Part shown: piece after piece, positions 6,996 to 58,103 of the stretch
How positions within the stretch are numbered: position 1 is the stretch's first letter
Layout: each line of letters begins with the position of its first letter
IMG/VR virus record: IMGVR_UViG_3300027608_000010
From: a virus
Lineage: Duplodnaviria; Caudoviricetes
Reading direction: 5' to 3' (one strand)
Length of the DNA: 64,000 nt
Program-made: the position numbers and the translations under genes
Notes under the pieces: model-generated
Seen by the model: the letters and a program-made list of their open reading frames with translations, nothing else
Databases searched by the model: none
What the model was told of the DNA's origin: nothing

Positions 6996-7082
6996 TTATG
7001 CTGTAAAGATTCCAAAACTAGGGAATCTGTTAATCCAAGTAGTTTGCGCTCCGGCTCCGGCAGGTGTAATTAGTGATATCAG
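6996..7082 (-). pseudogene. Orphan 3' gene fragment (LISLITPAGAGAQTTWINRFPSFGIFTA*)
   Basis: 28 open codons plus TAA, with fibre-like composition, no start codon or RBS, and an in-frame stop just upstream. Begins at the stop of the 89-aa gene. Confidence 0.45.
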
Positions 7083-7348
7083 GCTTCAGGTTTAGGATAT
7101 TTAACCTTGACTGCTTGTACTTTGGACAGCATTTCAGTTGCGGCATCCCCGCCTTTCCATAATGCATCAAGTTGGTCGCCTATTGGTGGATACTCAGCCG
7201 CACGTTTGGCTTTGTATGCGTTAGGGTCAACCCAAGCATTGACGGCATCCATGTCAAGTTCAACTTTGTTGCCTTGGACATCAAATGCTTCATCTTCCAC
7301 AGTCTTAACGACTTGTGAATAGAGTGCATAAACAGCTTGTACATTCAT
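7079..7348 (-). CDS. Tail-fibre-associated small protein (YPPIGDQLDALWK type)
   Basis: Motif common in small genes that follow phage fibre tip genes. ATGA overlap with the upstream gene. Confidence 0.7.
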   Translation of the reverse strand: MNVQAVYALYSQVVKTVEDEAFDVQGNKVELDMDAVNAWVDPNAYKAKRAAEYPPIGDQLDALWKGGDAATEMLSKVQAVKVKYPKPEA

Positions 7349-7989
7349 CCTGCCACCTCATAAATTGTTATTGAAGACACGGCAACTCCACCATCTATGC
7401 GACCGCCTCCTCGACCATTCATTGTTACTGTGCCAGCAGCCTCACTTCCAGCACGAACTCTAAATGTTGTTGACGATGTTGTTCCAGCGGTCATACTAAA
7501 GGTATATGACATAGGCAAACTCAAGCCAGAAGCAAGTGCACCATAAAATTGGGCTGCAATTGCATTTACTGTACTATCTTGGAACATTGCAACAGTCAAA
7601 GAATTTACATTGTTTTTATCTAATTGAATAGTTACGTTAATAATCAATTTATTTGTTGCGCTTGTTGGCGTAATTGCCAAAGTCATAAACTCAGTACCCT
7701 CAGTTATTTGAGGTATGGTGTCATCAAGTGGAATTGTTCCTGTTCCTGTTGCTACTGCGCCAGTTTGAAAAGTTGCAACTTGTAACACCGATCCTCTTTG
7801 ACGAAGTATGGGATCGCCAGAACCAACCATTGCTGCGCCGCCCATTTTAACCCATTGAACGGTTTTTCCATCAACACCTATTCTTTTGAATAATTCATTT
7901 GTACTTGGTTTGTAATACTCATCACCGATAGAAGCAACATCTGGTGCAACTTCGGTAATGGTATGCTTAAAGGGTTTAGAAGATGACAC
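7345..7989 (-). CDS. Fibre tip protein (GSVLQV-type C-terminal module)
   Basis: Start reassigned to GTG 7989 (MSSSKPFKHTITEVAP..GDEYYKP), just after the 1012-aa stop. C-terminal GSVLQVATFQTG..ITPTSATNKLII..SSITIYEVAG module. Confidence 0.7.
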   Translation of the reverse strand: MSSSKPFKHTITEVAPDVASIGDEYYKPSTNELFKRIGVDGKTVQWVKMGGAAMVGSGDPILRQRGSVLQVATFQTGAVATGTGTIPLDDTIPQITEGTEFMTLAITPTSATNKLIINVTIQLDKNNVNSLTVAMFQDSTVNAIAAQFYGALASGLSLPMSYTFSMTAGTTSSTTFRVRAGSEAAGTVTMNGRGGGRIDGGVAVSSITIYEVAG

Positions 7990-7994
7990 AGTGA

Positions 7995-10900
7995 TTACGC
8001 CTGTGCTTCTGTCCAAGATAAACGCGGTAAGATGTTTCCAGTTGCACTTAAACAAGTAGCACAAACAGTGATGACATCAGGACCATCTGGGAATTTACCT
8101 AATGCAGTAGTTGGCACAAGTGCGTTAGGTACACCTGATGTTGTTGGACCACCACCTAAGATATTAGTTCCAATATCTCGAACCAGTGTCAATTCTTGTT
8201 GTGTAACACCAGTTGTATTAGTAAAGAATGAGAACATACTTTCACCACCAGCAACCGTTTGTGTAATACCATGAACAGCATATTGTGCTAAACTTGAACC
8301 ACCTACTGGTACAAATGTACCTGCACTTGGTGAACCATTCAAGATAATATCAATACGAAACGCTACGCTTGTGTTAACGTCCATTTGTCGTAAAACTAAC
8401 TGCATGCGGTTAATAATTTCACGTGCACCTAACAAACCAGTTTGACCTGAATCAACGCTTGGGCTAACACGCAAACTAATTAATGGTACACGTTGATTTT
8501 GTTGTCCACTAGTAAATGCAAATGCTGTGTTAACACCTACGTTGAACACCAATGATTTATCATCATCATAACGACCATCCATAATAACTGAACTACCCCA
8601 ATGATTAATTGTAGTGGCAATTAGTGGACTATATAAACTAATTCTAATCGGAGCAGTAACACTGTATGTAAATGTTGTTGCCGCTGAACCACCTGTCTGA
8701 CCTCTAGCAGTGATTGTCAATGTAGTATTAGTTTTGGCGCTATATGTGATGTACTCAATAACTGCACCGGTAGCTCCGGATTGTGTTAAGTAAGCTGTAC
8801 CACTACTTGGCCATCTACTAAAATCTGCACCACTGATTGTTGCACCTGTAGTTGCGGCGCTTGCTAATGTAGCTGTTAAATATGTAGTAAAAGCAATAGT
8901 GTTTGTTTCATAACGAGTACACATATTACCTGAACGCATCCATGCTAGATAATTTAAGTTATTGTTAGGAATACGATGACAATACATAATGTCACCTCGA
9001 GTATTTCTAAATCCAAAACGAATCTCACCTGCACCATACCATGAATAGTCCATGTAGAACATTTGCATTTTTGTTAAGTCAAGATTGAAGCCACTTACAC
9101 CGGTGCCATTAGATTTATCTATATTCCATTCTGATTGTACAAATTTAGTATCAATTGTTTTACTGACAACTATATTGGAAGACGTTACACCTCTATATTC
9201 AGGATATATTTGCATTACTGTATCACTAGTAATACCCTGAACCAAATAACTTTGCCCACGAATAACTATGTAATCACCGGGTTTTAATTGATCAGAGAAA
9301 GTAGTTGCTGTTCCAGTAACAGCTTGACTTGAGTTAGTTGCCGCAACAACCCCACTTAATTGATATGTACTTGAACGTTTTACTACTGATATTGTTTGAC
9401 CGTCATATTCAAAGAACAATCCGTTTTGTTGGTCAAACATACCAATTCTATTAGAAGCATTATACCATAAATATGGACTTATGTATATCGGAAAGCCCGT
9501 AGCTGGTGATGCTGAAGGGGTTGATAATGCAGTATATGTGAACGACATTCGTGTAGGTACTGTGACAATAGTGAATATACCGTTATAAGCTGTTTGAGTC
9601 GCGCCAACTACTTGAATCTGTGCGCCAACTGCTAGGCCATGTGTTATTTTACATGTTACCGTAACTGTTGTACCACTAGATGTTATGGAATCTTGCCATA
9701 ATTGCGGCTTCAAAATTGTGCCAGTTGAAAACTGTAGACCCTTACCAGATTGATAACGGAAGTAACGACGGGTTTGTCGAATAACTTGATAGCCGTGTGT
9801 AGCATATCCATTACTAAATTGAACACCACCACTCCACGGACTATGTTCAACATAACCAGTTGCTCTTGCATAGAATGTTGCATTCAGTGTTGCGGTTGGT
9901 GTACCTGTTGCCGCTGTAGCAAAAGTAAATGTATTGTTAGTTGGTGTAGACACTACTACCACAGTAGTATTATTAATTGCTGTTACAGTACCAACACCAG
10001 TTAGGTATACATGATTACCAACTTGTAACCCATGTGCGTTTGTAGTAGTTACTGTACATGAACTAGCCGCAATGGCTGCAAATGCGCTAGTACCTGCAGG
10101 AATTACGGCACCTGTAAAGAATGTACCTGCAAATACATATGTTTTAGTAGCATCTATTAACGTAGCACTAATCATTGTTGGGGCAGTTAATGTAATATAT
10201 GTGAACACACCTGTTGTTGGGCTACTGGTGTTACAAATCCACCAGCCATCAGCATTACCCATGTCAAGTGTATTTTGAATAAATAATGTTTGACCTGCAG
10301 TTGGTATAGTCGCAGAGAATACGATTGTACCTGCAGTATTTGCTAACTGACTGATGATAGTAATTTGAGTCGCACTATCAATAGAAAGAATAGTTGTTAT
10401 ACCTGCACCAAATGCACCAGTACCACTAAATTTAGTAATAGCCATACCAGGATATAAACCGTTTACGCTTGCTAAACCAGTGATTGTTGAAACCGTAGTT
10501 GCACCAACAATTGTACCACCAGTAAACGATAACGCAGTTGCAGTAACAGTGGTAGTTGATGATGTTAATGTAGTTAATGGAATAGGAGCAGTTGGATCAT
10601 AGAATGCACTGGGACGATTATTAAGTAAGTTAATACTTTCCCATTTAGTTGGCTGCACCCCGTATTCAAAGTCAGTATCAATCAATGATTGCGGCATACT
10701 AACACGCATTTTACCTACTGGGTCCATTTGTGCTTCTGCTGGAGTTATTTCACTATATGTTTCTTCAACAATAATAGACAACTTATCTGTACTACTATGA
10801 CTTGACGTAGTGTACGCAGTAATGATTGTGGTTGTCTCTAATCCAGTTGTTGAACTTATGCTGTTAGTGATAGTAGCGGTTAAACTAGGATCGCTGAAGT

Positions 10901-11033
10901 TATAAATTACTGTACCTCTAGTTACGTTAGTAATCAACAACAATTGTTCTGCTCTGATAAATTTGCCCGAGACAACAACAGTATTGGTGCTCGGTGTAAA
11001 TGTATAGCTTTCTAATATTACGTGTTTTGCCAT
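7995..11033 (-). CDS. Large virion structural protein
   Basis: 1012 aa, Thr/Gly-rich beta protein. Motifs SLIDTDFEYGVQPTKWE and RQTRRYFRYQSGKG; repeated HGLxVGxxV (E1-FCCH-like) barrels. Confidence 0.75.
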   Translation of the reverse strand: MAKHVILESYTFTPSTNTVVVSGKFIRAEQLLLITNVTRGTVIYNFSDPSLTATITNSISSTTGLETTTIITAYTTSSHSSTDKLSIIVEETYSEITPAEAQMDPVGKMRVSMPQSLIDTDFEYGVQPTKWESINLLNNRPSAFYDPTAPIPLTTLTSSTTTVTATALSFTGGTIVGATTVSTITGLASVNGLYPGMAITKFSGTGAFGAGITTILSIDSATQITIISQLANTAGTIVFSATIPTAGQTLFIQNTLDMGNADGWWICNTSSPTTGVFTYITLTAPTMISATLIDATKTYVFAGTFFTGAVIPAGTSAFAAIAASSCTVTTTNAHGLQVGNHVYLTGVGTVTAINNTTVVVVSTPTNNTFTFATAATGTPTATLNATFYARATGYVEHSPWSGGVQFSNGYATHGYQVIRQTRRYFRYQSGKGLQFSTGTILKPQLWQDSITSSGTTVTVTCKITHGLAVGAQIQVVGATQTAYNGIFTIVTVPTRMSFTYTALSTPSASPATGFPIYISPYLWYNASNRIGMFDQQNGLFFEYDGQTISVVKRSSTYQLSGVVAATNSSQAVTGTATTFSDQLKPGDYIVIRGQSYLVQGITSDTVMQIYPEYRGVTSSNIVVSKTIDTKFVQSEWNIDKSNGTGVSGFNLDLTKMQMFYMDYSWYGAGEIRFGFRNTRGDIMYCHRIPNNNLNYLAWMRSGNMCTRYETNTIAFTTYLTATLASAATTGATISGADFSRWPSSGTAYLTQSGATGAVIEYITYSAKTNTTLTITARGQTGGSAATTFTYSVTAPIRISLYSPLIATTINHWGSSVIMDGRYDDDKSLVFNVGVNTAFAFTSGQQNQRVPLISLRVSPSVDSGQTGLLGAREIINRMQLVLRQMDVNTSVAFRIDIILNGSPSAGTFVPVGGSSLAQYAVHGITQTVAGGESMFSFFTNTTGVTQQELTLVRDIGTNILGGGPTTSGVPNALVPTTALGKFPDGPDVITVCATCLSATGNILPRLSWTEAQA

Positions 11034-11038: not shown

Positions 11039-11464
11039 TTAATCTCCTAATGCGATGGTTGTCGCTGAAAACGGGTATTTGCGGGTTTGCACAGATTGAC
11101 TAGTGTTGGTAATCATTACAACTGCTTGGTCTCCCGGAGCCGGTGCGTTATAAATTATTAAATTACCATTACTTGTCACTCTAAATCCTTTGTATGAGTT
11201 ATATTCTACGATCCACGGATATGTCAATTCATTGACATATGGTGCTAAAATCTGACCATTCAATGTTACTTGAACATCTTTTGAATCTACTACTGTATTT
11301 ATGCTAGTTTGATCCTGCTTCAACGGAAACACTGCTTTTCTACCGTCAAATTGAGTACTAATATCATTACAAACAATGGGTAAGCTACCGCGAAAAAGCG
11401 TACCTATCGTTACTGTATTAGCTGATAAGTCTGTGCCTGTTGATTTAATTTTTGTTAGTGCCAT
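11039..11464 (-). CDS. Small virion structural protein
   Basis: FDGRKAVFPL..VQVTLNGQIL..IIYNAPAPGD variant of the FxGDG..LxxxP repeat seen in neighbouring fibre genes. Confidence 0.65.
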   Translation of the reverse strand: MALTKIKSTGTDLSANTVTIGTLFRGSLPIVCNDISTQFDGRKAVFPLKQDQTSINTVVDSKDVQVTLNGQILAPYVNELTYPWIVEYNSYKGFRVTSNGNLIIYNAPAPGDQAVVMITNTSQSVQTRKYPFSATTIALGD

Positions 11465-11478: not shown

Positions 11479-14400
11479 TTATCTTACTGAAAGTGCCCCG
11501 GTTGGTGCTGTAAAATTAGCAGTGTATCTTGCAAATCCTTTTGTGATTCTTAAATCGTCTATGTAACCATTTAACAAACTTGTCATTCCGTTAGAGTCTT
11601 GTCCAACGTATAGAGAATACGGAACACTATAGTTTCTAGCGTCAGTGTAGGTTGACCCAGTTTGTGTCCCGTTAATAAATATTTTTGAACTTCCGGATGC
11701 TCTAGTAAGTGCTATATGATACCATATACCTGCGCTAGGTGACCAAGTAGCGTTGATAGCATTATTTACTGTAGGTGAAATATAATATGTCAAATTACCA
11801 GCAGTATTATTCCAAGTGATCCCCATACGATCAGATGTAGAACCTGTGACTGATAACCATACAATATCCTGTCTATTAGAAGTATTAGTAAAGTTAATCC
11901 AAAATTCAACTGTGAAGTCACCTGTACCAAACGCAAAGTTTGGTGTAGATGACAACATATTCAATGACTGTGTCGTTGCGTTAAAACTCATACTAGCAAC
12001 ATTATACTTCTTAACACTGGTGCTTAACTGTGCATTACCTACAGTCTCTAACACATTAGTAGAGTGTTGGTCAACTATGCCACCGTTATTGAAGTTCAAT
12101 AATAAACTTGATGGTCTTGATGTAGAATAATTACCTATTGTTTGTGTGGGTGGTATAAATGATGATGTGTACACTGCGGTGCCAATAACGACTCTTGCGT
12201 TAGAAATATAACCCATAAAATTACTGCCGCTACTGTGTTGACCAATTCGAATTGTTTCGGTATGATTATATAATGCAGCGCCAACACCTGTTGATGTGGC
12301 TGCAATAGCACCATTTTTATATAAAGTAATTGTTGTGCCGCTACGCACCATTGCAACATGGTTCCATGTGTTGGTAGTAATAGCTACTGTGTCAGTAGGA
12401 GTTGCTAGCCAACTTCCACCACTAGAACTAACTAAACCAGTTAACAGATTTGTTGTTGAAGCTACAACTATTCCAAATTCTGCATAAACAGGAGAACCTT
12501 GATAACCTTTTGCAATCAAAACTCTTTCACTACCAAGAGCACCGGTAAGGTTAAACCAACATTCAATAGTAAAATCGGTGTTTGCACCAATCCATTGATT
12601 AGTTGAATGCGTTACATCCAAATAATCCCCAGTACCATCAAAGTATGCACTGCCACCATGTGTGGTTGGGGTATAACTTGTACCACTCTGTGCGGTGTAT
12701 CCTAATGGGTTGAATTGTCTTGGCTTTACGTCGCCAGTCACGGTTATTGTAAATGCATTAGTACTGTTATCAATCATGGTAGTTGATTGACAAGTTAACA
12801 GTGAAACTTGTGAGGCAGTAGCACTTTGACTTGTGGTAGTCAATGGTGTAGTACTTGGTGTAAAACTAGTTGTATATAATCCAGTACCTTTAATTATACG
12901 AACATTACTTATAAAACCAGTGAAAAAATTACCTGTATCATCACTCACCCCTATTCTAAGGTCTTTGTTGGCACCATTATAAAAATATATTGTTGGGAAA
13001 GAAGCCATATTAAACGTAGTTGGGTCAGCTACTCCGTTGATGTAAAATGTTAATGTATTTCCAACTCTTACTAATGCAACATGAGTCCAAACGTTTGCAG
13101 AGATTGTAGTTGAACCGGTGAAGGTGTTAGTTTGAATTCCGGACGCCGCACCGGTGTATATAAATTGAAGAACATTTCCAGTAGTAATTCGCCAACTAAA
13201 TGCACCGCCGCCATTCCAATTATTTACTATACCTCTTTCAGTACCGGCTGTCATTGGGTATATCCAGCATTCAATAGTAAAATTACCCCCGCTGAATAGA
13301 AAAGGAGTATACTGTGCTATACTTAAATAATCCCCAGTACCATCAAAGTAATTGCTATAACTAATAGGTGTTGCTTCAGGCACACTACCGAATGGACTTA
13401 GTGCTTGTACTGAAGTATCACCGTTTTTAGTAATTGCAAAACTATTAGGTGAATTGTCAATTAATCTATTTGTTTGACAAGTTAATAAACTTGTATTTGT
13501 TATAGGTGTTAGTGGAGACGTAGGTGGGGTAAATGTCGAAGTGTATAATGCGGTACCTTTAAGTACACGAACATTAGAAATGTATCCCTGAACATAGTCG
13601 GTTGAACCGCCATTGCCTATCCAGACTGCATCAGTTACTGTTCCTATATTGCCAGACAACGTTGATGTGCCAACACTTGTTCCATTAAACCACAAAGTGA
13701 TACCTGTTCCAGATCTAGTCAATGCCACATGGTACCATTGGTTTGCTGCTAGTGTAGCTGATGTAGTAATTGCTCCTGTTGTTGCGCTATTATTAAATAT
13801 AACCCTCATTGTCGCACCATTGTTCATTTGAAACATCCAGCCATACACGCCCGCAGACGGATATTGTCCTACTAGTACTTGATAACCCGTTACTCTTTGT
13901 AGATATACCCAACATTCTACAGTAAAATCAGCTGTGAATTGAAATGCTGCATTTCCTGGGACACTCAAATAATCCCCAGTACCATCAAAGTAATTACTCC
14001 AACCTGTCACACTATAAGGACTAAATGTACCTTGACTTGTATTACCATTTCGTGTGATGATATTGTTGAATGGTCCGTTATCTATAATAGCTTGATTAGT
14101 TGCACCACCATTATATTGTAATGTTAGTAAACTTGTGTTTGTTATAGCTGTTAGTGGTGTTGTGCTTGGTGTGAAAGTACCTGTATATACTGCGGTACCT
14201 TTAACTATGCGTAAATCTGAAATATATCCGTTAACAAAACTATTATTAGCTCCAGCATTTCTGCCAATATTTAATGTATTAGGTGATGTAAAAGAGTATG
14301 ACACTGTATTAGTTCCAATACTAATACCATTTACATAACAAGTTAATGTAGTACCAACTCTACAAAATGCTATATGATACCAAACACTAGCAGTTAATGT

Positions 14401-21986: not shown

Positions 21987-21987
21987 G

Positions 21988-22745: not shown

Positions 22746-22752
22746 TATTTAG
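22746..22752 (-). promoter_or_regulatory. T4-late-like promoter
   Basis: CTAAATA overlapping the stop of the 308-aa gene, upstream of 22728. Confidence 0.4.
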
Positions 22753-44184: not shown

Positions 44185-44192
44185 TACTTATG
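44185..44192 (-). promoter_or_regulatory. T4-late-like promoter
   Basis: CATAAGTA overlapping the 77-aa stop, upstream of 44167. Confidence 0.45.
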
Positions 44193-49866: not shown

Positions 49867-50316
49867 TTATCCGTTAAATTTAAAATCTATACTAGCTGAG
49901 GTGTCATTATAACTTAATGCAGCAGCCGCATTGCCAGCGGCATTAGCTAGATTAAGATTTCCACCTACAGTCAAGTCTTTTGCTACTCCCATCCCACCCA
50001 ATGTTGTAAAACTTCCCGAAGAAATAGTAGTGGAGTCTGTAGTAGTATTTATTGTTAAATTTGAATTAATGACGACAGAAGTAGCATTTGCAGTAATACT
50101 TTGCCCATTAATGTTTAATTCATTGGATAGAAATACATCTTTGTATCTTAGTGATGTATTTCCTAGATTATATATACCAGAAGTTCCTGGATTTAGATTA
50201 GATATTACATATCGTTGTACTGCAATGTTACTGACATTGGCATTTCCGCTTTCTGCATCAAGCGTAATATTACCTGTTGTTATACCGGTTTTTACATTGA
50301 AATATCGATTTGTCAT
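49867..50316 (-). CDS. 149-aa short fibre/structural protein
   Basis: YFNVKTGITTG start, NLNPGTSGIYNLGNTSLRYKDVFL repeat, C-terminal IDFKFNG. Confidence 0.7.
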   Translation of the reverse strand: MTNRYFNVKTGITTGNITLDAESGNANVSNIAVQRYVISNLNPGTSGIYNLGNTSLRYKDVFLSNELNINGQSITANATSVVINSNLTINTTTDSTTISSGSFTTLGGMGVAKDLTVGGNLNLANAAGNAAAALSYNDTSASIDFKFNG

Positions 50317-51445: not shown

Positions 51446-54378
51446 TATGCAAAACTCCATGAAGTTACAGTATCACCTGAATTAAGTGCTATACTGAATA
51501 AAATTTGATTTCCGAATGAATTTGTTGAACTTGCAGTACCAAATGATATAGTGTAAGTTTGTGCTGATATTGCAGTTCCATACGGAACTACTGTACCAAT
51601 TGCACATCCATTCGTACCATTACCCCCGTTAGCTGGGCGGCCACTGCTTCCGTCATTATAGCCAGGAACACCCGATCCGTTATATGGAAGATTTGCATCA
51701 AGCCAGCCATTTAGCGAACTTGCCGTATCAATTGCAGTACCGGGTAAAGCAAAATACAAACCACGAATTGTACCGCTGATTGTTACTGTAATACTACTTC
51801 TTGCTGTTCTAGTAAAAGCACCAAAGAAAAACTGTGCTCCACTACGACCAGTTGCTAGATCAGGTCCTGTTGGTAAATAACCAGTTGACAAATCTGTTGC
51901 AAAGTGTTTTAATGCATTCCAGCGAACAACTGCACTATCTGTTCCTGCTATAGTTTGAGCACCGGTCCATGGACTATTATAATAATTTGTAGAAGAACTA
52001 TATACTCTTGTTGCACCTGTACCAGCAATTACAATACGTTTTGCAACTGCACTTGTTCCGCCAACTGTACAAGCAATACTATCTTCAACAAATCCACTTG
52101 GTGTAGATGTGAACACTTGAATTTTCTTACTGAATGTTGATGCAGTACCTGTACCATTTACATTAGTTGCTTTAAATTGAATCTCTTGCACTGATACTAC
52201 ACTTGACGCAGTAAGTGCAACACTTTGTGGACCAATTGTTGCTTTATTTGAACTGTCTTTACCTGTATCAGCATTTGGATTATTACCAGTTAAGAATGTA
52301 CTTGGTGCACTCGTATTCAATTGTGCATAAGTTTTTGTTTGTGTTGCAACTACTGCACCGGTTGTTGATTCATAGTTTGTACCAGCCTGAATTGTAAAAG
52401 GTGTTGCAGTATTGTATGGCCCTAAATAAGTCTGACCAATCCAATCATAAATTTTACCAGTTGTTAATGTTAGTGTTGGACTACCTGTATTGTAGTACGG
52501 AACACCTGAAATGTAACGATATGTTCCTGCAGTACCTTCAGTTAGCGTAGCATTACTTAAATCTACTGTTGGGGCAGATATTACGTCATCTTTAACAAAT
52601 TCAACAACGTTTGTATTTCCACCTGTACTATGACGTAATTGTAAACTGTTTACACCCGGACTAACTGCACTTGCTGCCTTAGCAACACGGGCTTTTAATC
52701 CACTGAATAAGCTAGGACTATAAATTGATGATGCAAATGTTGTAGTGATACCTGCACTAGTTAATAAATTATAATCACTTTCACTATCAATCACTAATGA
52801 CATATTTGTACCAGAGTCATCACCTGCTGATAAAGTGATACTACCATTATCATTATCATTGACATATGCACTTATTACACCTGATGATGCAGGGTAAGCA
52901 AATGAAGTCATTGCTACTGTATTAATTGTACCAGAAGTTAATATAGTTCTATTAACCAATGTTCCTGCAGTATACACCACTGTTGTTGCTCTGTTGTTTG
53001 CAAATCCAGCAACAAGATATGGTGCTGTGCCTGTACTTGAACTGAATGTAATTGTTTTTGTACTTAGATTTGCAGGGGCAGCAATACCTGGATCGTAAAT
53101 CTTTATTGTTGATGTAGTAGAATTATTGACTCCAGCAGAAACGAACGGTGGGTTTGTAGAGTGCGATGTCAATGTCAATGTAATTGTTCTTGTGCCTGTT
53201 CCAGAGTTTTGAGTAGATCCATACGTATGACTCTTACGACCACCACCAACACCACCGTTAACGCTATCACTACTGATGGTATCTGTATTGCCATCACCCC
53301 AATTAATTGTGTAAGTAACTGCAGCCATACTAGTATTAGTTGTAGTATTTTCTAAATAGAAGGTTTCACCTTCACTTACATATAGAGTACTACCTGATAA
53401 TACAGTACCACCTGTTGTACCTCTATATAAGCCAAAGCCCATTACTGGATTTGCAGTATAGATAGCAATATAATCAGTGAGAGTTGTGCTAGCACTGCTA
53501 CCAGTGCCCGACCCACCGTTGTTATATGCAGTAACAGTTACATCATATGGGCTATCAGTATTAGTATTATATTGATGAGATGGAATAGGAGATAAAGTTG
53601 TTAATCCTGTTGTGTTTGAAGTACCATCACCCCAATTAATATCCCATCGATTTGGACTACCGTATGTTGCTACAGGTGTACTAGATATAGTCAAGCCTAC
53701 ATATGTTCCAACACCAGCCGCTATCACGTTTGCAGTAAATACCGGAGCTTTTACGTATGTGAGATTTCTAACATTTTCCATTACTTCATTTAAATCGTCA
53801 ATAGCGTCAGTTACTTTGGTGTTAGATGTCCAATTTGTTACTGTTCCCGGACTAACTAAATTACCAGGAGAAGCATCAACTGCTGTTGTAGGATATCCTA
53901 ATGGAATTGCATTTCCAACACTACCTGATATTGAACTTGCAGATAGAGTTCCGTTGATATTAAGATTACCTAATCTTACATTTCCAAATTCATTAAACGT
54001 TACTACATTGTTAGCAACTGATACATTGCTACCAAATGAAAATTCACTATTACTATTATCCCAGCCTATAAACGCATCAATGGCCTGACCATCATAGTAA
54101 TGTAATACATGACCTCTGTCTTTGTTGTCATCAACTGTTATTATATTACCGTCTCTGTCACCGCCAATGTCTACTAATGGATCAGTGATATATGTAGTAG
54201 TAGTTTCAATATATGAAACGGTCCCAAGAACGGTTAGGTTACCGGCAATATTTGCATCACCTGAAACTGTTAAATTGGCAGCAGATACGTTACCAATGCT
54301 GTCAATAATGTCTACGACATTATCGTCACCAACTGAGTAACCTGCAATAGAATTGAATTTTTTAAGAGTAGCTGTCAT
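51445..54378 (-). CDS. 977-aa virion protein with PKD-like domains
   Basis: WDINWGDGT and YTINWGDGN signatures; paralog of the 1370-aa C-terminal region. Confidence 0.8.
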   Translation of the reverse strand: MTATLKKFNSIAGYSVGDDNVVDIIDSIGNVSAANLTVSGDANIAGNLTVLGTVSYIETTTTYITDPLVDIGGDRDGNIITVDDNKDRGHVLHYYDGQAIDAFIGWDNSNSEFSFGSNVSVANNVVTFNEFGNVRLGNLNINGTLSASSISGSVGNAIPLGYPTTAVDASPGNLVSPGTVTNWTSNTKVTDAIDDLNEVMENVRNLTYVKAPVFTANVIAAGVGTYVGLTISSTPVATYGSPNRWDINWGDGTSNTTGLTTLSPIPSHQYNTNTDSPYDVTVTAYNNGGSGTGSSASTTLTDYIAIYTANPVMGFGLYRGTTGGTVLSGSTLYVSEGETFYLENTTTNTSMAAVTYTINWGDGNTDTISSDSVNGGVGGGRKSHTYGSTQNSGTGTRTITLTLTSHSTNPPFVSAGVNNSTTSTIKIYDPGIAAPANLSTKTITFSSSTGTAPYLVAGFANNRATTVVYTAGTLVNRTILTSGTINTVAMTSFAYPASSGVISAYVNDNDNGSITLSAGDDSGTNMSLVIDSESDYNLLTSAGITTTFASSIYSPSLFSGLKARVAKAASAVSPGVNSLQLRHSTGGNTNVVEFVKDDVISAPTVDLSNATLTEGTAGTYRYISGVPYYNTGSPTLTLTTGKIYDWIGQTYLGPYNTATPFTIQAGTNYESTTGAVVATQTKTYAQLNTSAPSTFLTGNNPNADTGKDSSNKATIGPQSVALTASSVVSVQEIQFKATNVNGTGTASTFSKKIQVFTSTPSGFVEDSIACTVGGTSAVAKRIVIAGTGATRVYSSSTNYYNSPWTGAQTIAGTDSAVVRWNALKHFATDLSTGYLPTGPDLATGRSGAQFFFGAFTRTARSSITVTISGTIRGLYFALPGTAIDTASSLNGWLDANLPYNGSGVPGYNDGSSGRPANGGNGTNGCAIGTVVPYGTAISAQTYTISFGTASSTNSFGNQILFSIALNSGDTVTSWSFA

Positions 54379-54389: not shown

Positions 54390-57389
54390 TTAGATAGTTT
54401 TATATTGTGTAGTCCACAAGATAGGATTAGTACTTGACGGAGTTACAAGAAGTTGTACCTTACCACCGCTATAGTTTGCACTAAGTCTACCAACCCAACC
54501 TCCAATATTTACAGTACCATATACATCATATGAGATATTAGCTCCATCATGTACACATGCAACAGTAGCAATACTGTATTTGAATGCAGTTGTATCTTCA
54601 CCTTTGACAAAGAATTCAACTCCACGATATGATGCGGCATCTACTTCAGCAATAATTTGTCCAACGGTCGTTGCAGTTGTTGTGATTGTACTAGATCGGA
54701 TTGATGAGTTACCAATTTTAACTGTTGTTGGGCTAATTTGACCAACAGTAATGTCACCTAAATGTACATACCCAGAAACATTAAGATTACCGACAAGATT
54801 AGCACCCGAGTTGTGTACCGTGAATGTTGTTACTCCACTAACAGTAGATACAATGTTACCATTGTTGTACGCATAAACGTTACTAGTACCGTTGGATAAT
54901 ATACCTTTATTAATAGCAGTAAAACTTAGTGTTCCTGCACCGTCTGTGTTCAATACTAAAACTTCACCTGAACCCGGAACAGTAGGATTATCTGCTAATG
55001 GGTATTGTAGTCCGCCTGCATATAAATTACTTGCTCTAATTTTATCAATGTTTGCAAAATTCGAAACGCTAATATTAGCTAAACCTGACATATCAGTAAT
55101 ATTTGGTTGACTAGATGTTTCTATTCTACCGTATATATTTGCACTAATTAAATTACCTAAATGCAAATTAGCATATGTACCTGTTGCAACTTCATTAGTT
55201 AACGTTGCACCGGAAAGAATTTCAAATTCTCTATTAGCAGTTGACCAACCAAAGAATTGATTTGATGCGGCACTGCTATAATAATTACGTAATAATAAAC
55301 CCCTATCACCAGTAACAGTGCCTGCTAGATCATTAGCATTTCCTGAACCACCCAATGAAATTACTGGATCAGTCGAGTCAATATTTGTTACATTAATATA
55401 AGTAGTTGTTCCGTTGACTGTTAAGTTACCAGTAATATCTAAATTACCACCAACACTTGTATCCGATCCGACAGATAAACTACCGGATATATTTGCATTC
55501 TTTGGTGCAACTGTTGTTCCAACTATTAAGTTTCCACCAACGTTAGCTATGCCACCTACATTGATATTTCCACCAATACCAACGCCACCTGTTACTACAA
55601 AAGCACCAGTATTAACATCAGTTGAAGTTGTAGTATTTGATACTTTACTATTTCCCCAAACTAATAAATTTGCGGGAGTAGCGACATTTCCAATAATAAC
55701 GTTACCATAAGTCTGTACATTACCGGCAACAAGATTACCAGTAACAATTTGATCTGTTGTGGTAACTGATCCGGTACCGGTAGATGAAATTGTAGCAGTG
55801 CCTAATCTAATACTATATCCAGATAACCACAAGTCTTTCCAAGGATGAGTTTCAGAACCCAAATCATAACCTATATGATTTGCCCCATCACCGGCGATAG
55901 ATGGAATCAAATTTGACGTAACATAATTTCTTACATTCAAATTACCTATATCTAATGCACCAACAATATTTGCATTACCACCAACATATGCATCACCTGA
56001 AATATTTGCATTAGTTTTTGCAGTAGAGTTACCAATTAAGATATTACCATATATTTGTGTGTTTGCGGAAATTGATACATTACCACCAAATACAGAATCA
56101 CCTCGTACATTAGCAGTCTCTACTACATAAAGAGTTTTACTTTTAACTTCTCCTGAAGTAACCGCAATATTACCTGAGCCAACTAAATTTCCCGCAGTAT
56201 CAAATGATAGTGTACTACCGTTTGTAGCATCAAAGTAGAAGCCACCTAAATTAGCAATCAATGTCGAATGGTTTGCACCATCGTCATATTTCAACTCAAC
56301 CTTACCACCTGCGCCAGGAGCATTAATGCTGACTATATTTGTAGATGTACCAACAATATATCCACCAGTACTGAATACAACATTAGAAAGATTAGTAACA
56401 TTTCCTACACTAACATTACCACCAAATGTGACTAGATTACTGGTTTTATTGTATGTAATACCATTAGCACCGGCAATTGCATTACCGTCATTGAATAATA
56501 CTGTTGTATCTAAACCTTGATTTGCAAGTGACGTTGAGAAAATAGTACCATATATATTACCATATATATTGCTTGTTACATTTCCTGCAACATCAAGGTT
56601 GCCAATAATATTTGCACCTGCAGAAAGATTAAGATGTCCTGCTTGTAAATTTGCATTACCAGAAGCATAGGTGAATACCCATGCATTGGCTGCTTCTGTC
56701 CATAATAATGATGTACTAGATCCTGTACCACGATCAATTTGAAAACCTGATGTTCCTGAACTTACGCTTGACCCAGATTCACCTTTGTTTAGAATAACAA
56801 TATTATCTTCAATTGTTGTGTTTGTTGTTTCTAAACTTGTTAATGATCCTTGAACTGTTAGATTACCACCAATAGTAGCATCACCACTGGTGTAAAAGTT
56901 ATTAGCCTTTAGTTTATCTTCTGCAAAATCATAATAAAGATTAGCAGTATCTTGTAATCGATGAGAGTTATTAGAAAGAACTAGCCTAGTGTCTGTTAAA
57001 TTGTTTGCATAAATATTTGCACCAACAATGTTACCGGAGACACTTACGTTTGATGTTAAAAATTGTCCATTAGCAGGATAAAAAGCTAAGTTTACATTTG
57101 AACTAAAATTATTACCAACATTATATTGAATTTCATAGTTAGCACCGGCTGCTTCTTGTAAGTCCCATGCAATACCGTTTGCATATAGTAGATGGTCTGT
57201 TCTAAGATTACCAGTAAGTATTGTATTACCAACGATAAGATTACCATTACCTGCAGCTATTGTACCAATAGTAACATTTGATGTTAGTCTAGCATTACCG
57301 GTCGTTATATCACCGTTTGCTAATATGACACTCGTTGGGAGTTCACCTACTGAGAAACCACCAACTGAGTTAAATGTGCGAATAGCCAT
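54390..57389 (-). CDS. 999-aa fibre protein
   Basis: FNSVGGFSVG start, GNxxxxGN shaft repeats, IEDNIV..DRG module, C-terminal YRGVEFFVK..VHDG..YGTV domain. Confidence 0.8.
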   Translation of the reverse strand: MAIRTFNSVGGFSVGELPTSVILANGDITTGNARLTSNVTIGTIAAGNGNLIVGNTILTGNLRTDHLLYANGIAWDLQEAAGANYEIQYNVGNNFSSNVNLAFYPANGQFLTSNVSVSGNIVGANIYANNLTDTRLVLSNNSHRLQDTANLYYDFAEDKLKANNFYTSGDATIGGNLTVQGSLTSLETTNTTIEDNIVILNKGESGSSVSSGTSGFQIDRGTGSSTSLLWTEAANAWVFTYASGNANLQAGHLNLSAGANIIGNLDVAGNVTSNIYGNIYGTIFSTSLANQGLDTTVLFNDGNAIAGANGITYNKTSNLVTFGGNVSVGNVTNLSNVVFSTGGYIVGTSTNIVSINAPGAGGKVELKYDDGANHSTLIANLGGFYFDATNGSTLSFDTAGNLVGSGNIAVTSGEVKSKTLYVVETANVRGDSVFGGNVSISANTQIYGNILIGNSTAKTNANISGDAYVGGNANIVGALDIGNLNVRNYVTSNLIPSIAGDGANHIGYDLGSETHPWKDLWLSGYSIRLGTATISSTGTGSVTTTDQIVTGNLVAGNVQTYGNVIIGNVATPANLLVWGNSKVSNTTTSTDVNTGAFVVTGGVGIGGNINVGGIANVGGNLIVGTTVAPKNANISGSLSVGSDTSVGGNLDITGNLTVNGTTTYINVTNIDSTDPVISLGGSGNANDLAGTVTGDRGLLLRNYYSSAASNQFFGWSTANREFEILSGATLTNEVATGTYANLHLGNLISANIYGRIETSSQPNITDMSGLANISVSNFANIDKIRASNLYAGGLQYPLADNPTVPGSGEVLVLNTDGAGTLSFTAINKGILSNGTSNVYAYNNGNIVSTVSGVTTFTVHNSGANLVGNLNVSGYVHLGDITVGQISPTTVKIGNSSIRSSTITTTATTVGQIIAEVDAASYRGVEFFVKGEDTTAFKYSIATVACVHDGANISYDVYGTVNIGGWVGRLSANYSGGKVQLLVTPSSTNPILWTTQYKTI

Positions 57390-57404
57390 GTCTTTTTATC
57401 CTTA

Positions 57405-58103
57405 TTAATCTTTAAATTTTGTAATCAAAATTTTATATTCTGTCAAATCTGCTGTCATCGGAGATGCAGTTAATACTACATTACCGGCTCCGCCACCTGC
57501 TTCAAAACTAACTCTAAAATCAGCTACTCCAGGACTTGTTATTGGTAAATCTACTGTACCAAATTCAGAATACTCTACTGTACTTCCTAAGATTGCCGCG
57601 TTTAAATCACTTACTTGTCTATAATTTAATGAAGTATTGGTTGCAATGATCGTGTAGTTAATTGCTGAAATACTACTAGCATATGATCTATGCAATACTT
57701 GATATGCCGATGCACTACTAGTAGTAGAAATTTGTGATGAAATTTCATAGAATTGGTTTGGAGGTAACCCTAATGTGAAAGTTGAGGCTGCTAGATCGCT
57801 TTCTACTGTTACTGATTTTGTAACTTTATCATATAAAACTCCTTCAGCACTAACAGCAATTTGACCGTCATTGAATAATAGTGCGCCCTGAGAACCTGAA
57901 ATTGTAATGTTACCTGAAACATTACCGGTAATATTACCATTGATGTTTGTTGCACTGATATCACCTGATACTGCTAAGTTACCTGATAAACTAACATTAC
58001 CAAATCTTGCTCTATCTGCTGTAATATACCCATTGGCAGCTACAACTTGGATAGGTGGAATTCCTACCGTGTAACCATAGGGTGCATTAAAAGGTTCTGA
58101 CAT
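57405..58103 (-). CDS. 232-aa short fibre/structural protein
   Basis: FNAPYGYTVG start; C-terminal domain related to those of the 999-aa and 369-aa proteins; GGAG RBS. Confidence 0.75.
   Translation of the reverse strand: MSEPFNAPYGYTVGIPPIQVVAANGYITADRARFGNVSLSGNLAVSGDISATNINGNITGNVSGNITISGSQGALLFNDGQIAVSAEGVLYDKVTKSVTVESDLAASTFTLGLPPNQFYEISSQISTTSSASAYQVLHRSYASSISAINYTIIATNTSLNYRQVSDLNAAILGSTVEYSEFGTVDLPITSPGVADFRVSFEAGGGAGNVVLTASPMTADLTEYKILITKFKD

What the first reader, a model, noticed from the sequence alone, without database searches (positions are those of the whole stretch)
7079..58103. A 51-kb, 28-gene combinatorial fibre/adhesin array assembled from a small parts kit
Seen: everything between the post-capsid terminator and nrdA is putative fibre, adaptor or adhesin. 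The same necks, shafts, heads and gene junctions recur in different combinations, and there is no tail tube, sheath or baseplate gene in between. Known: T4 uses about six genes for its fibres. Inference: a hairy or branched multi-receptor virion whose parts are reshuffled by homologous recombination between shared blocks, without a dedicated recombinase or reverse transcriptase in this window.
Basis: partly seen in the sequence, partly recalled or inferred. Interest (0 to 1): 0.8.

Follow-up and report, generated by a model that had tools for sequence, protein, structure and literature searches.

The report
Hypervariable fibre-gene island, freshwater jumbo phage
About a fifth of the genome of an uncultured freshwater giant phage is one 51-kb run of 28 genes for fibre-like and sugar-binding particle proteins, built from a few reused modules and rearranged between close relatives; it is a very large example of a known way for phages to change what they stick to.

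Summary
Window 7079-58103 carries 28 tightly packed minus-strand ORFs between the T4-type head module (portal, protease, scaffold, gp23) and nrdAB. No tube, sheath or baseplate family was detected. About 70% of the 16,835 residues align to another gene of the array.

The recurring modules are:
- beta-rich shaft repeats
- 14 LamG units in three genes
- four Gly_rich_2 proteins
- a 544-aa Ig/CBM-like head (two copies)
- a 180-aa N-domain (two copies)
- a T4 gp9/gp10 XD1-type end domain (two copies)
- a duplicated 3-kb piece that crosses a gene junction

Relatives show that the island is plastic. Phages with 86-88% identical capsid protein have 31-kb and 68-kb arrays. Relatives at about 90-94% show a 10-kb versus 3.5-kb block replacement, LamG copy-number changes, a PKD insertion and a swapped tip cassette. 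Exact DNA runs between paralogues (76 and 54 nt) are far longer than shuffled differences give, which fits gene conversion.

The first gene is predicted to form an intertwined trimer. Virion location (head or tail), branching and receptors are not shown.

This is a new, very large variant of a known kind: multi-fibre and "hairy" jumbo phages, and mosaic fibre genes. The scan has noted similar arrays in other jumbo phages (e1-5322532, e1-5403665, e1-160858).

The parts
57405..58103 (-). Gene 1, 232 aa. A conserved fixed-length mini-fibre with the N-terminal FNxxxGY(S/T)VG motif.
   Evidence: 78 homologues of 224-236 aa at 35-92% identity. Homotrimer prediction ipSAE 0.90 against best control 0.00, pLDDT 94, about 750 contacts. 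The motif is kept in all relatives.
54390..57389 (-). Gene 2, 999 aa. A shaft-repeat fibre protein with the FNxxxG motif.
   Evidence: Mosaic BLASTP matches to six other array genes. phrog_697 'structural protein'.
51445..54378 (-). Gene 3, 977 aa. N-terminal shaft plus a 544-aa C-terminal head module (phrog_8578).
   Evidence: AF2 model of residues 434-977: pLDDT 92.3, pTM 0.83. It shows tandem Ig/FN3-like sandwiches plus a CBM-like jelly roll, with weak matches only (Z 5-6.5). 320 cluster representatives all carry the module at the C-terminus.
50336..51460 (-). Gene 4, 374 aa. Carries the 180-200-aa N-domain (phrog_9417).
   Evidence: 52% identical to the N-terminus of the 728-aa gene. phrog_9417. 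Homologous to the N-half of phiCbK_245 / CcrSC gp131.
49867..50316 (-). Gene 5, 149 aa. A short shaft protein with the FNxxxG-type N-terminus.
   Evidence: The same N-terminus heads an 846-aa protein in relative G004.
48960..49853 (-). Gene 6, 297 aa. A single LamG lectin-fold protein.
   Evidence: Pfam Laminin_G_3, E 1.7e-12. It is the most diverged gene (90.6%) in the 99%-capsid relative.
44435..48892 (-). Gene 7, 1485 aa. A fibre with an internal head-decoration-like domain (residues about 720-950). A promoter-like GATAAATA lies upstream.
   Evidence: phrog_2647 'head decoration', E 1.4e-38. PDB 9nx3_A capsid decoration protein, E 1.1e-10. Promoter motif at 48937.
44188..44421 (-). Gene 8, 77 aa. 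Shares the MATIAARL start with gene 6.
   Evidence: Conserved at 95-99% in G001 and R262. No family hit.
40055..44167 (-). Gene 9, 1370 aa. Shaft plus the second copy of the 544-aa head module.
   Evidence: Residues 515-1370 are 56% identical to gene 3. Colinearity with relative R262 ends 190 nt into this gene, at 43978.
37869..40055 (-). Gene 10, 728 aa. N-domain (phrog_9417), shaft, Ig-like domain and XD1-type C-terminal domain.
   Evidence: Residues 631-728 match CBA120 TSP4 XD1 (7rej_A, Z 12.5, rmsd 2.1 A, 97 aligned, 28% identity). Residues 555-622 match an Ig-like neck/tail decoration fold. More than 2190 mosaic homologues.
34351..37869 (-). Genes 11-13 (481, 258 and 425 aa). Gly_rich_2 proteins with a shared 41-aa C-terminus. 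Gene 11 also has TIG and He_PIG Ig domains.
   Evidence: Pfam PF21722, E about 1e-16 each. C-termini are 63-80% identical. The whole block is absent from relative R262.
33975..34328 (-). Gene 14, 117 aa. A conserved small protein (phrog_7759).
   Evidence: 49-69% identical in G004 and G003. Only its last 60 nt survive in R262.
30599..33937 (-). Gene 15, 1112 aa. Shaft fibre ending in an XD1-type domain. A promoter-like GATAAATA lies upstream.
   Evidence: Residues 1026-1110 match CBA120 TSP4 residues 90-175 by sequence, E 1e-7. A 76-nt exact block is shared with gene 10. Promoter motif at 33954.
24229..30579 (-). Gene 16, 2116 aa. A giant fibre with about 8 internal repeats of 0.38-0.5 kb.
   Evidence: Repeat families D1-D3. 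Exact internal repeats of 164 and 134 nt, reached in 0 and 1 of 20000 permutations.
24019..24219 (-). Gene 17, a 66-aa ORF with a fibre shaft motif. It may be a remnant.
   Evidence: Read from the 222-nt gap. No family hit.
22749..24006 (-). Genes 18-19. A 109-aa protein (YKVLG start) followed by a 308-aa Gly_rich_2 protein.
   Evidence: The 109-aa protein is 59% identical to the one at 16077-16406. phrog_1276 and the tail-fibre PHROGs 11338 and 693. PF21722.
21627..22728 (-). Genes 20-21. A 246-aa protein with two DUF4183 Ig-like units, and a 123-aa small protein.
   Evidence: Pfam DUF4183. Matches to genes 10, 15 and 16. The 123-aa protein is conserved in G004 at 54%.
16435..21627 (-). Gene 22, 1730 aa. 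Seven LamG lectin-fold units after an Ig-like N-terminus.
   Evidence: Pfam Laminin_G_3, E 6.7e-141, 7 stretches. The homologue in relative L100 has 6 units.
16077..16406 (-). Gene 23, 109 aa. Paralogue of gene 18. A promoter-like AATAAATA lies upstream.
11479..16077 (-). Gene 24, 1532 aa. Six LamG units.
   Evidence: Pfam Laminin_G_3, E 1.1e-111, 6 stretches. The homologue in L100 is 850 aa with 3 units. A 54-nt exact block is shared with gene 22.
11039..11464 (-). Gene 25, 141 aa. A small protein with no paralogue.
7995..11033 (-). Gene 26, 1012 aa. Homologue of the cyanophage 'virion structural protein' family.
   Evidence: phrog_5838, E 1e-260. 43-44% identical to S-RSM4 and S-PM2 p175.
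7079..8064 (-). Genes 27-28 (239 and 89 aa). The distal 'tip cassette'. The 239-aa protein ends in a Pgp3-C (TNF-like trimer) domain.
   Evidence: Pfam PF05475, E 1.2e-5, just above its cut-off. In relative L100 the cassette is replaced by 206, 693 (Gly_rich_2) and 140 aa genes.
58104..58219 (-). Entry of the array: a terminator hairpin (58176-58199), then a promoter-like GATAAATA (58131-58137).

Best explanation
The segment is a hypervariable structural-gene island of an uncultured freshwater jumbo myovirus. The genome is about 262 kb. The head module is T4-type and related to PA5oct, Vibrio phage 2.275.O and the Rak2-like phages. The island encodes mainly trimeric fibre-type and lectin/Ig-type surface proteins.

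Inferred working:
- The genes are transcribed late, from at least four internal (G/A)ATAAATA promoters.
- The products trimerise and attach to the particle through conserved N-terminal parts.
- They display varied distal binding modules (LamG arrays, Ig/CBM-like heads, XD1 sandwiches, Gly-rich domains, a TNF-like tip). This gives multivalent, probably glycan-directed, adsorption to host cells.

Shown by comparison: the island grows and changes by tandem and segmental duplication, by repeat-number change, and by replacement of blocks of one to six genes between related phages.

Inferred: the exchanges use general homologous recombination and gene conversion between the shared shaft and linker DNA. 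No dedicated diversifier is involved.
For: Lineage and setting:
- Head module and lineage: Pfam Gp23, Portal_T4 and Peptidase_S77. MCP is 64-67% identical to 2.275.O, PA5oct and Rak2-like phages. Both cultured relatives keep the same synteny and place fibre genes after gp23.
- Genome size: close relatives lie on 262,532-bp and 261,045-bp contigs.
- Habitat: freshwater and lake metagenomes of 13 studies.

Fibre nature:
- Homotrimer prediction for gene 1: score 0.90 against best control 0.00, pLDDT 94, runs agree in at least 96% of contacts. The mark was reached by 20 of 30 solved homo-pairs and 1 of 23 single chains, and the counts hold only roughly because my own alignment and three copies were used.
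- Conserved N-terminal motifs head proteins of very different length in relatives.
- The XD1 domain is supported by fold (Z 12.5, rmsd 2.1 A, 97 aligned) and by sequence (E 1e-7).
- The head module is always C-terminal and is a confident Ig plus CBM-like model.
- LamG, Gly_rich_2, TIG, He_PIG, DUF4183 and Pgp3-C domains are present.
- There is homology to cyanophage genes annotated as virion structural proteins.
- BFVD fold hits are tail fibres.

Late expression: 6 of the 11 ATAAATA sites on the coding strand lie no more than 50 nt before a start codon, in the few intergenic gaps. TATAAATA itself occurs once against 11 expected.

Plasticity:
- Arrays of 31, 51 and 68 kb lie between the conserved gp23 and nrdA.
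- A 10-kb versus 3.5-kb replacement has breakpoints at 43978 and 34034.
- A PKD insertion is seen in one relative.
- LamG counts are 7+6 here against 6+3 in a relative, which also has a swapped tip cassette.

Recombination signal: exact runs of 76, 54, 44 and 40 nt between paralogues were reached in 0, 2, 28 and 153 of 20000 permutations.
Against: - There is no virion proteome, image or host, so presence on the particle is inferred from homology, fold and gene position.
- Eight small ORFs have no assignable role.
- The monomer model of the 728-aa protein is poor (pLDDT 48.6) apart from residues 555-728.
- The CBM-like assignment rests on Z 5-6.5, which the tool says can be a common arrangement.
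- Blocks for the permutation test were chosen after seeing them. Uneven selective constraint could also lengthen identical runs.
- The proximal seven or eight genes are stably colinear, so not the whole array is shuffled.
- Metagenome 'joints' had only 20-26-nt sides and cannot show ongoing rearrangement.
Confidence: 0.75

Rival explanations
1. These are head fibres, not tail fibres. Most of the array decorates the capsid, as in PTm1, phAPEC6 or the phiCbK head filament. It would increase encounter and reversible attachment rather than serve as baseplate receptor-binding proteins.
For: - The array starts directly after gp23.
- Gene 7 carries a domain matching PHROG 'head decoration' and a solved capsid decoration protein.
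- The XD1-type end domain also matches a capsid spike (9ny6_C, Z 9.7).
- Two kit modules are the two halves of phiCbK_245, which lies between the capsid gene and the candidate head-filament gene (PMC3556154).
- Hairy capsids are known in the related phAPEC6 (PMC7247149).
Against: - XD1 is best known from baseplate proteins (T4 gp9 and gp10, CBA120 TSP4; PMC8825819).
- PA5oct and 2.275.O place proteins annotated as tail fibres at the same post-gp23 position.
- No capsid-binding domain was identified.
- The phiCbK homologue was not among the proteins detected in phiCbK virions (PMC3556154, Table 2).
Confidence: 0.3
2. The array is a library rather than an ensemble. Only the conserved proximal genes are assembled on every particle. 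The distal, fast-changing genes would be alternative or dispensable cargo, or non-virion proteins such as secreted or cell-surface adhesins made during infection.
For: - The proximal seven or eight genes are colinear down to 94% capsid identity, while the distal genes are replaced wholesale.
- Several distal genes have no fibre N-terminus (the Gly_rich_2 proteins and the small ORFs).
- Nothing shows incorporation into the particle.
Against: - All genes are co-oriented, tightly coupled and behind the same promoter-like motif as the head genes.
- Distal genes are homologous to cyanophage genes annotated as virion structural proteins.
- No switching device (invertase, inverted repeats or RT) is present.
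- I did not test for signal peptides.
Confidence: 0.15
3. It is an assembly artefact: the repeats and mosaic joins would come from chimeric short-read assembly of several co-occurring strains.
For: - The window comes from an uncultured population.
- Short-read contigs of four runs break at the repeats.
- No listed contig spans 27.4-29.7 kb.
Against: - Independent contigs match over 16 kb (G001, 97-99.7% protein identity) and 10.7 kb (L099, 98.4-99.6% nt).
- Pieces of up to 3.5 kb are identical in runs of four studies from 2017 to 2025.
- All 28 ORFs are intact.
- Relatives have arrays of the same character.
Confidence: 0.04

Closest known systems
Hyperbranched multi-fibre adsorption apparatus of Rak2-like Klebsiella jumbo phages (RaK2 gp098 and gp526-534, phiK64-1, phiKp24; PMC10253068, and PMC13282480 citing PMC9700779)
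   Same: - Jumbo myoviruses of the same broad T4-type head lineage (MCP about 64% identical).
- Ten or more fibre genes in clusters.
- The presumed purpose is many receptors on one particle.
   Different: - Those fibres are mostly beta-helix capsule depolymerases joined through T4 gp10-like XD2/XD3 docking domains.
- Here no depolymerase family and no XD2/XD3 were detected. The distal parts are lectin, Ig and CBM-like.
- The array is two to three times larger (28 genes, 51 kb).
- Nothing here is shown experimentally.
'Hairy' jumbo myoviruses phAPEC6, CBB, Y3 and the head-fibred PTm1 (PMC7247149, PMC5259590, PMC13282480)
   Same: - Related capsid protein (64%).
- Flexible, apparently trimeric hairs on capsid and tail.
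- Arrays of related genes attributed to tandem duplication.
   Different: - The genes for those hairs are not firmly assigned.
- The arrays noted in Rak2-like phages are RCC1-type propellers with a shared N-terminal tag (earlier scan notes). The window has no RCC1 gene, although relative R262 has a 2737-aa RCC1 giant in its array.
Virion structural proteins of T4-like cyanophages (S-PM2 p175-p177, S-RSM4; LamG-rich giant proteins; PMC3037559)
   Same: - Direct homology: gene 26 matches phrog_5838 at E 1e-260 and is 43-44% identical.
- The LamG giants hit cyanophage structural PHROGs.
   Different: - Cyanophages carry a few such genes scattered in about 190-kb genomes.
- Here they are part of one 51-kb island in a phage of a different head lineage.
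XD1 domain of T4 gp9 and gp10 and of CBA120 TSP4 (PDB 7REJ; PMC8825819)
   Same: The fold and 28% identity over 97 residues (Z 12.5), plus a sequence match (E 1e-7).
   Different: - In TSP4, gp9 and gp10 the domain is internal and acts as a spacer near the baseplate anchor.
- Here it is the C-terminal end of two fibres. There the same fold could instead bind glycans, as in StcE and CpaA. That reading is an inference.
phiCbK_245 / CcrSC gp131 of the giant Caulobacter siphoviruses (PMC3556154)
   Same: One protein holds both the 180-aa N-domain and the 540-aa head module of the kit, at 31-36% identity. As here, it is encoded just downstream of the capsid gene.
   Different: - In the window the two modules sit on either side of a gene junction (end of gene 3 / start of gene 4, duplicated as genes 9 / 10), on proteins with added shafts.
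- The function in phiCbK is unknown.
Mosaic tail-fibre genes exchanged by recombination among unrelated phages (classical observation for P2, Mu, P1, lambda and T-even fibres; from my own knowledge, not checked here)
   Same: Conserved N-termini, swapped distal parts and exchange at homologous stretches.
   Different: Scale: dozens of genes and tens of kilobases within one genome, with much intragenomic paralogy.

Membership tests
T4-type-head jumbo myoviruses related to PA5oct / Vibrio 2.275.O / Rak2-like phages | gp23-type major capsid protein, gp20 portal and gp21 protease, in conserved order | tested here: met
   Pfam Gp23 (E 1e-98), Peptidase_S77 and Portal_T4. MCP is 64-67% identical. 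Gene order matches L089 and L090.
Trimeric phage fibre proteins | Homotrimer with an intertwined shaft | tested here: met
   Prediction only, for the 232-aa gene: ipSAE 0.90 against best control 0.00, pLDDT 94, interface along residues 2-125. The larger genes were not tested.
Trimeric phage fibre proteins | Conserved N-terminal attachment part with variable distal part among relatives | tested here: met
   The FNxxxGY(S/T)VG and ISDTQKVDYLWKK-type starts head proteins of 149-3009 aa in G003, G004, R262 and R182.
Trimeric phage fibre proteins | Presence in purified virions | not testable with these tools
   No cultured member. Only homology to cyanophage genes annotated as virion structural proteins.
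Branched tailspike complexes (Ackermannviridae TSP1-4, G7C, RaK2) | T4 gp10-like XD2/XD3 jelly-roll docking domains on an anchor protein | tested here: inconclusive
   Only an XD1-type domain was found, at the C-termini of two fibres. Most large proteins were not folded.
Branched tailspike complexes (Ackermannviridae TSP1-4, G7C, RaK2) | Beta-helix polysaccharide depolymerase bodies | tested here: inconclusive
   No pectate-lyase or tailspike family in Pfam or PHROGs for any array protein. The folds of the giants were not examined.
Diversity-generating retroelement (DGR) targeted fibres | Reverse transcriptase with template and variable repeat pair nearby | tested here: not met
   No RT family among the window ORFs. 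This holds for the window only; the rest of the genome was not available.
Invertible fibre cassettes (Mu Gin, P1 Cin type) | Site-specific invertase plus inverted repeats flanking alternative C-terminal exons | tested here: not met
   All genes are on one strand. No invertase family was found. There are only two weak inverted repeats of 27-32 nt at 75-78%.
LamG (concanavalin-A-like) multi-lectin virion proteins | Tandem Laminin_G_3 domains | tested here: met
   7, 6 and 1 units in three genes, E down to 7e-141.
RCC1-propeller arrays with shared N-terminal tag of Rak2-like phages | RCC1 repeats and one common N-terminal dodecapeptide | tested here: not met
   No RCC1 hit in the window. N-termini fall into at least six small classes of 2-4 genes, not one tag.

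The most novel reading that the evidence does not exclude
The fibres may be daisy-chained. The 544-aa head at the end of one fibre (genes 3 and 9) would be the docking site for the 180-aa N-domain of the protein encoded next (genes 4 and 10), so each long fibre carries a secondary fibre.

The clues are of the 'Rosetta stone' kind. The two modules are fused in one polypeptide in phiCbK-like phages. In this genome they flank a gene junction that was duplicated as a unit (39573-42402 matching 50960-53861).

If this held, together with the several N-terminal classes, the island would encode a combinatorial plug-and-socket system. That system could put more than 20 distinct binders on one particle, head included.
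Probability: 0.2. Interest if true: 0.75.

Novelty: new variant of a known kind. Interest (0 to 1): 0.5.

Why it matters
The phage spends about 51 of roughly 262 kb (about 19%) on surface binders, and a relative spends 68 kb. That exceeds the best-studied multi-fibre phages, RaK2 (10 proteins) and phiKp24 (14).

The island uses lectin, Ig and CBM-type modules rather than depolymerases. This suggests a different adsorption strategy in dilute freshwater: multivalent, low-affinity capture of glycans, possibly from several hosts.

The lineage is widespread, in lake metagenomes of 13 studies. Its island differs between phages whose capsids are 94% identical. It is therefore a natural system for studying how host range evolves by module exchange, and a rich source of compact glycan-binding domains.

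It also warns that 'hypothetical' giant ORFs after gp23 in metagenomic jumbo phages are probably adsorption hardware.

Tried and rejected
- Megablast of 25 kb of the array against 50,697 phage records gave no match. The window's own genome is not held.
- I suspected that the phrog_9417 N-domain was a siphovirus tail-tube domain, because CcrSC gp131 precedes two small genes and a 2757-aa 'tail protein'. I rejected this. In phiCbK the homologue lies next to the capsid gene and the candidate head-filament gene gp76, not at the tube gene gp92 (PMC3556154).
- A profile of that N-domain against PDB sequences gave nothing credible (best E 0.08). Its AF2 model was unusable (pLDDT below 50). The Atlas feature search gave only weak leads: T4_gp9_10_N at rank 66 with score 0.79.
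- Foldseek of the head module against PDB gave only generic Ig-chain adhesin matches (TM below 0.2). The Atlas feature search for it scored below 0.8.
- PDB sequence searches of the 1370-, 1012- and 999-aa proteins gave no hit.
- Pfam at E up to 1 on ten small ORFs gave nothing meaningful.
- Metagenome contigs laid on 24001-44000 gave many 'joints', all with 20-26-nt sides. The tool says such joints often come from repeats or other organisms, so I do not count them as rearrangements. The lower depth beyond 38.7 kb in two runs is a per-contig figure and is not evidence.
- The genome search could not reach the 262-kb metagenome record, so its array was read only to 41 kb.
- tblastn of a Gly_rich_2 protein against phages gave only two partial hits, probably because of low-complexity masking.
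- The T4 late promoter TATAAATA occurs only once. I replaced it by the looser (G/A)ATAAATA reading.
- I looked for inverted repeats that could support an invertible cassette and found none of note.
Full report
**What the window is.** All genes lie on the minus strand. Read in that direction the window holds:
- A T4-type portal at 62867-64000 (Pfam Portal_T4).
- A 75-aa and a 292-aa gene.
- The gp21-type prohead protease at 61038-61682 and a scaffold-like gene at 59935-61035.
- The gp23-type major capsid protein at 58701-59903 (Pfam Gp23, E 1e-98).
- A terminator, a 117-aa gene and a second terminator.
- The array, from 58103 down to 7079.
- A conserved 144-aa gene.
- nrdA (4182-6503), nrdB, a thioredoxin-like gene, a PAAR protein and a 688-aa unknown.

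The capsid protein is 64-67% identical to those of Vibrio phage 2.275.O, Pseudomonas PA5oct, Sinorhizobium Phosso and the Rak2/121Q-like jumbo phages. PA5oct and 2.275.O keep the same portal-to-capsid order and also place a few fibre genes after gp23. Close relatives lie on 262,532-bp and 261,045-bp metagenome contigs. The stretch occurs in freshwater and lake metagenomes of 13 studies. The source is therefore an uncultured freshwater jumbo myovirus of about 262 kb.

**The observation.**
- I count 27 ORFs of 77 aa or more, plus a 66-aa ORF with a shaft motif at 24019-24219, giving 28 genes.
- Junctions are -70 to +22 nt, except five gaps of 28-222 nt.
- Pfam and PHROGs find no tube, sheath or baseplate core family. 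The PHROG 'baseplate wedge subunit' hits of the two giants are six or seven separate stretches that match LamG repeats.
- All-against-all BLASTP shows dense mosaic similarity. 69.7% of the 16,835 residues align to another array gene at E<1e-5.

**The parts kit.**
- (a) Beta-rich shaft repeats, shared by the 999-, 977-, 1485-, 1370-, 728-, 1112- and 2116-aa proteins.
- (b) LamG units: 7, 6 and 1 in three genes.
- (c) Four Gly_rich_2 proteins with a common 41-aa C-terminus, 63-80% identical.
- (d) A 544-aa C-terminal head, present twice at 56% identity.
- (e) A 180-200-aa N-domain, present twice at 52% identity.
- (f) An Ig-like DUF4183 unit and a C-terminal beta-sandwich, each present in two or three genes.
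- (g) Two 109-aa paralogues, 59% identical.

A 2972-nt segment (39573-42402) matches 50960-53861 at 65% identity. It covers the end of one gene, the stop/start junction and the start of the next, so a gene junction was indeed copied.

Eight genes have no paralogue: 232, 77, 117, 123, 141, 1012, 239 and 89 aa.

**Are they fibres?**
- The first gene (232 aa) belongs to a fixed-length family of 224-236 aa with 78 homologues. As three copies it is predicted to form an intertwined trimer. The score is 0.90 against a best control of 0.00, pLDDT is 94, and the three runs agree in at least 96% of contacts. The mark was reached by 20 of 30 solved homo-pairs and 1 of 23 single chains. These counts hold only roughly, because my own alignment and three copies were used.
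- Its N-terminal motif FNxxxGY(S/T)VG also heads the 999-, 977- and 149-aa proteins. In relatives the same starts head proteins of quite different length, for example 527, 718 and 846 aa. This is the usual fibre logic of a constant attachment end and a variable distal end.
- The 728-aa protein folded poorly as a monomer (pLDDT 48.6), but residues 555-728 are confident.
  - Residues 631-728 superpose on the XD1 domain of CBA120 tailspike 4 (7rej_A: Z 12.5, rmsd 2.1 A, 97 residues, 28% identity).
  - They also superpose on a Klebsiella phage baseplate chain (Z 11.7).
  - Residues 555-622 are an Ig-like domain of the kind found on phage necks and tails.
- The 1112-aa protein ends in the same domain by sequence (E 1e-7).
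- According to PMC8825819, XD1 (TSP4 residues 80-178) shares its fold with T4 gp9 and gp10. It acts as a spacer rather than a docking surface, and is also the fold of glycan-binding modules in StcE and CpaA. It therefore marks these proteins as baseplate/fibre-type parts but is not evidence of branching.
- The 544-aa head gave a confident model (pLDDT 92.3, pTM 0.83).
  - It has tandem Ig/FN3-like sandwiches followed by a jelly roll that resembles carbohydrate-binding modules. The matches are only Z 5-6.5, which may be a common arrangement.
  - Among 320 cluster representatives the module is always at the C-terminus of carriers of 512-2867 aa. This is what one expects of a receptor-binding end.
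- The 1012-aa gene is a clear homologue of a cyanophage family annotated as virion structural proteins (phrog_5838, E 1e-260; 43-44% identical to S-RSM4 and S-PM2 p175).
- The 1485-aa protein contains a domain matching PHROG 'head decoration' and a solved capsid decoration protein.

**Expression (inferred).**
- The T4 late promoter TATAAATA occurs once against 11 expected.
- ATAAATA occurs 11 times on the coding strand. Six of these lie no more than 50 nt upstream of a start codon, inside the few intergenic gaps. The genes concerned are the 75-aa gene after the portal, the 117-aa gene after gp23, and array genes 1, 7, 15 and 23.
- The array therefore looks like at least four late transcription units of the same kind as the head genes.

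| Relative | Capsid or flank identity | What differs |
|---|---|---|
| G001 (21.9 kb) | MCP 99% | Colinear over the first eight array genes at 97-99.7% protein identity. The single-LamG gene is at 90.6%. |
| R262 (262,532-bp JGI contig) | MCP 94%, portal 97% | Block replacement and different downstream genes; details below. |
| R182 | MCP 94% | The third gene is 1471 aa instead of 977 and has gained PKD domains. |
| L100 | 1012-aa gene 91%, nrd region 93.9% nt | LamG giants have 6 and 3 units instead of 7 and 6. The last two genes are replaced by 206-, 693- (Gly_rich_2) and 140-aa genes. |
| G004 | MCP 88% | 68 kb and 30 genes between gp23 and nrdA, including proteins of 4525 and 2642 aa. |
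| G003 | MCP 86% | 31 kb and 14 genes between gp23 and nrdA. |

Details for R262:
- It is colinear at 83.6% nt over 20.2 kb, down to window position 43978, which is 190 nt into the 1370-aa gene.
- The next 10 kb of the window are represented by only 3.5 kb (a 960-aa and a 258-aa gene). That 10 kb holds the rest of the 1370-aa gene, the 728-aa gene, three Gly_rich_2 genes and the 117-aa gene.
- Homology resumes at 34034, so R262 keeps only the last 60 nt of the 117-aa gene.
- Further on R262 has a Phage_tail_APC gene, a 1160-aa gene and a 2737-aa RCC1-repeat giant, none of which is in the window.

In G004 and G003 only the small 117-, 123- and 144-aa genes and the first gene are recognisably orthologous. 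The large genes match at 30-45% in patches. The refutation condition 'fixed colinear arrays with no swaps' is therefore not met. The proximal seven or eight genes nevertheless form a stable framework.

**Mechanism of change.**
- Between different genes the longest exact DNA runs are 76 nt (1112-aa and 728-aa genes), 54 nt (the two LamG giants), and 44, 43 and 40 nt. Inside the 2116-aa gene there are runs of 164 and 134 nt.
- I shuffled the differences within each local alignment. The observed runs were reached in the following numbers of 20000 permutations:
  - 76-nt run: 0
  - 54-nt run: 2
  - 44-nt run: 28
  - 40-nt run: 153
  - 164-nt run: 0
- This is the pattern expected from gene conversion or recent homologous exchange. 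The blocks were chosen after the fact, and uneven constraint could contribute.
- No reverse transcriptase, invertase or useful inverted repeat is present in the window.
- Metagenome contigs cannot show ongoing rearrangement.

**Where on the particle?** This is unresolved.
- Tail reading: the XD1 fold is best known from baseplate proteins, and PA5oct and 2.275.O put proteins annotated as tail fibres after gp23.
- Head reading:
  - The array sits next to gp23.
  - Gene 7 has a decoration-like domain.
  - There is an unexpected link to the phiCbK-like phages. The N-domain and the head module are the two halves of one phiCbK-like protein (CcrSC gp131, phiCbK_245; 31-36% identity, E 1e-19 to 1e-47). 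That protein is encoded between the capsid gene and the candidate head-filament gene (PMC3556154).
- In the window these two modules flank the duplicated gene junction. This suggests, but does not show, that the head of one fibre and the N-domain of the next protein interact.

**Comparison with what is known.**
- Multi-fibre and hairy jumbo phages are described: RaK2 with ten adsorption-complex proteins (PMC10253068); phiKp24, Y3 and PTm1 (PMC13282480); phAPEC6 with trimeric hairs on capsid and tail and arrays of related genes (PMC7247149); and CBB (PMC5259590). Mosaic fibre genes are textbook knowledge.
- This scan has also noted comparable arrays in other jumbo phages (e1-5322532, e1-5403665, e1-160858, e1-222221).
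- What is unusual here is the scale, about 19% of the genome and up to 68 kb in a relative. Also unusual are the lectin/Ig/CBM rather than depolymerase content, the copied gene junction, and the speed of turnover between phages with 94% identical capsids.
- I rate it a new variant of a known kind, real and well supported as a sequence feature. Particle architecture and host are unknown.

Noticed in passing
window 39525-40055 and 50915-51445 (N-domain); 40058-41689 and 51448-53079 (head module); loci L097, L098: The two kit modules are the two halves of a single protein in phiCbK-like giant Caulobacter siphoviruses (CcrSC gp131, phiCbK_245). That protein is encoded between the capsid gene and the candidate head-filament gene. 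This hints at a head-associated role or at an interaction between the two modules.
   Followed up: partly
window, whole; sites at 62856, 58623, 58131, 48937, 33954, 16426: TATAAATA occurs once against 11 expected. The looser (G/A/C)ATAAATA sits just upstream of head and array genes. This is a candidate late promoter that differs from T4's at the first base.
   Followed up: partly
locus L095 21096-22958 and beyond (JGI contig of 262,532 bp): The 94%-capsid relative carries a 2737-aa RCC1/WD40-like repeat giant and a Phage_tail_APC chaperone gene inside its array. Neither is in the window.
   Followed up: no
R262 (L095) about 27700-27860, matching window 33975-34034: Only the last 60 nt of the 117-aa gene survive in the relative, just before the conserved promoter of the next fibre gene. 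This looks like a scar of block deletion or replacement.
   Followed up: partly
window 34182-34285 and 37983-38058: In lake metagenome contigs these 75-100-nt tracts carry 12-13 substitutions, while the flanks are identical. They may be small conversion tracts or reads from co-occurring relatives.
   Followed up: no
window 22000-24000 and 34000-38000: GC rises to 43-45% against about 37% elsewhere, exactly over the Gly_rich_2 genes. This probably reflects glycine (GGN) codons rather than foreign origin. I did not test it.
   Followed up: no
window 58220-58573: The 117-aa gene, isolated between two terminators right after gp23, diverges much faster than its neighbours (62-90% identity against 94-99% for the capsid protein). 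No family hit.
   Followed up: no
window 49-2393: A PAAR-motif protein (2112-2393), translationally coupled to a 688-aa protein without any family hit, lies downstream of nrdAB. It may be a spike tip and partner placed away from the other tail genes.
   Followed up: no
locus L100 20040-20477; locus L099 7602-8012: Relatives have an extra 145-aa gene or about 410 nt inserted just after nrdB, where the window has a 156-nt gap (2926-3081).
   Followed up: no
window 6515-6949: The 144-aa gene between the array and nrdA is conserved (55-63%) at the same position in relatives whose arrays are otherwise unrelated. It has no family hit. It marks the fixed distal border of the island.
   Followed up: partly
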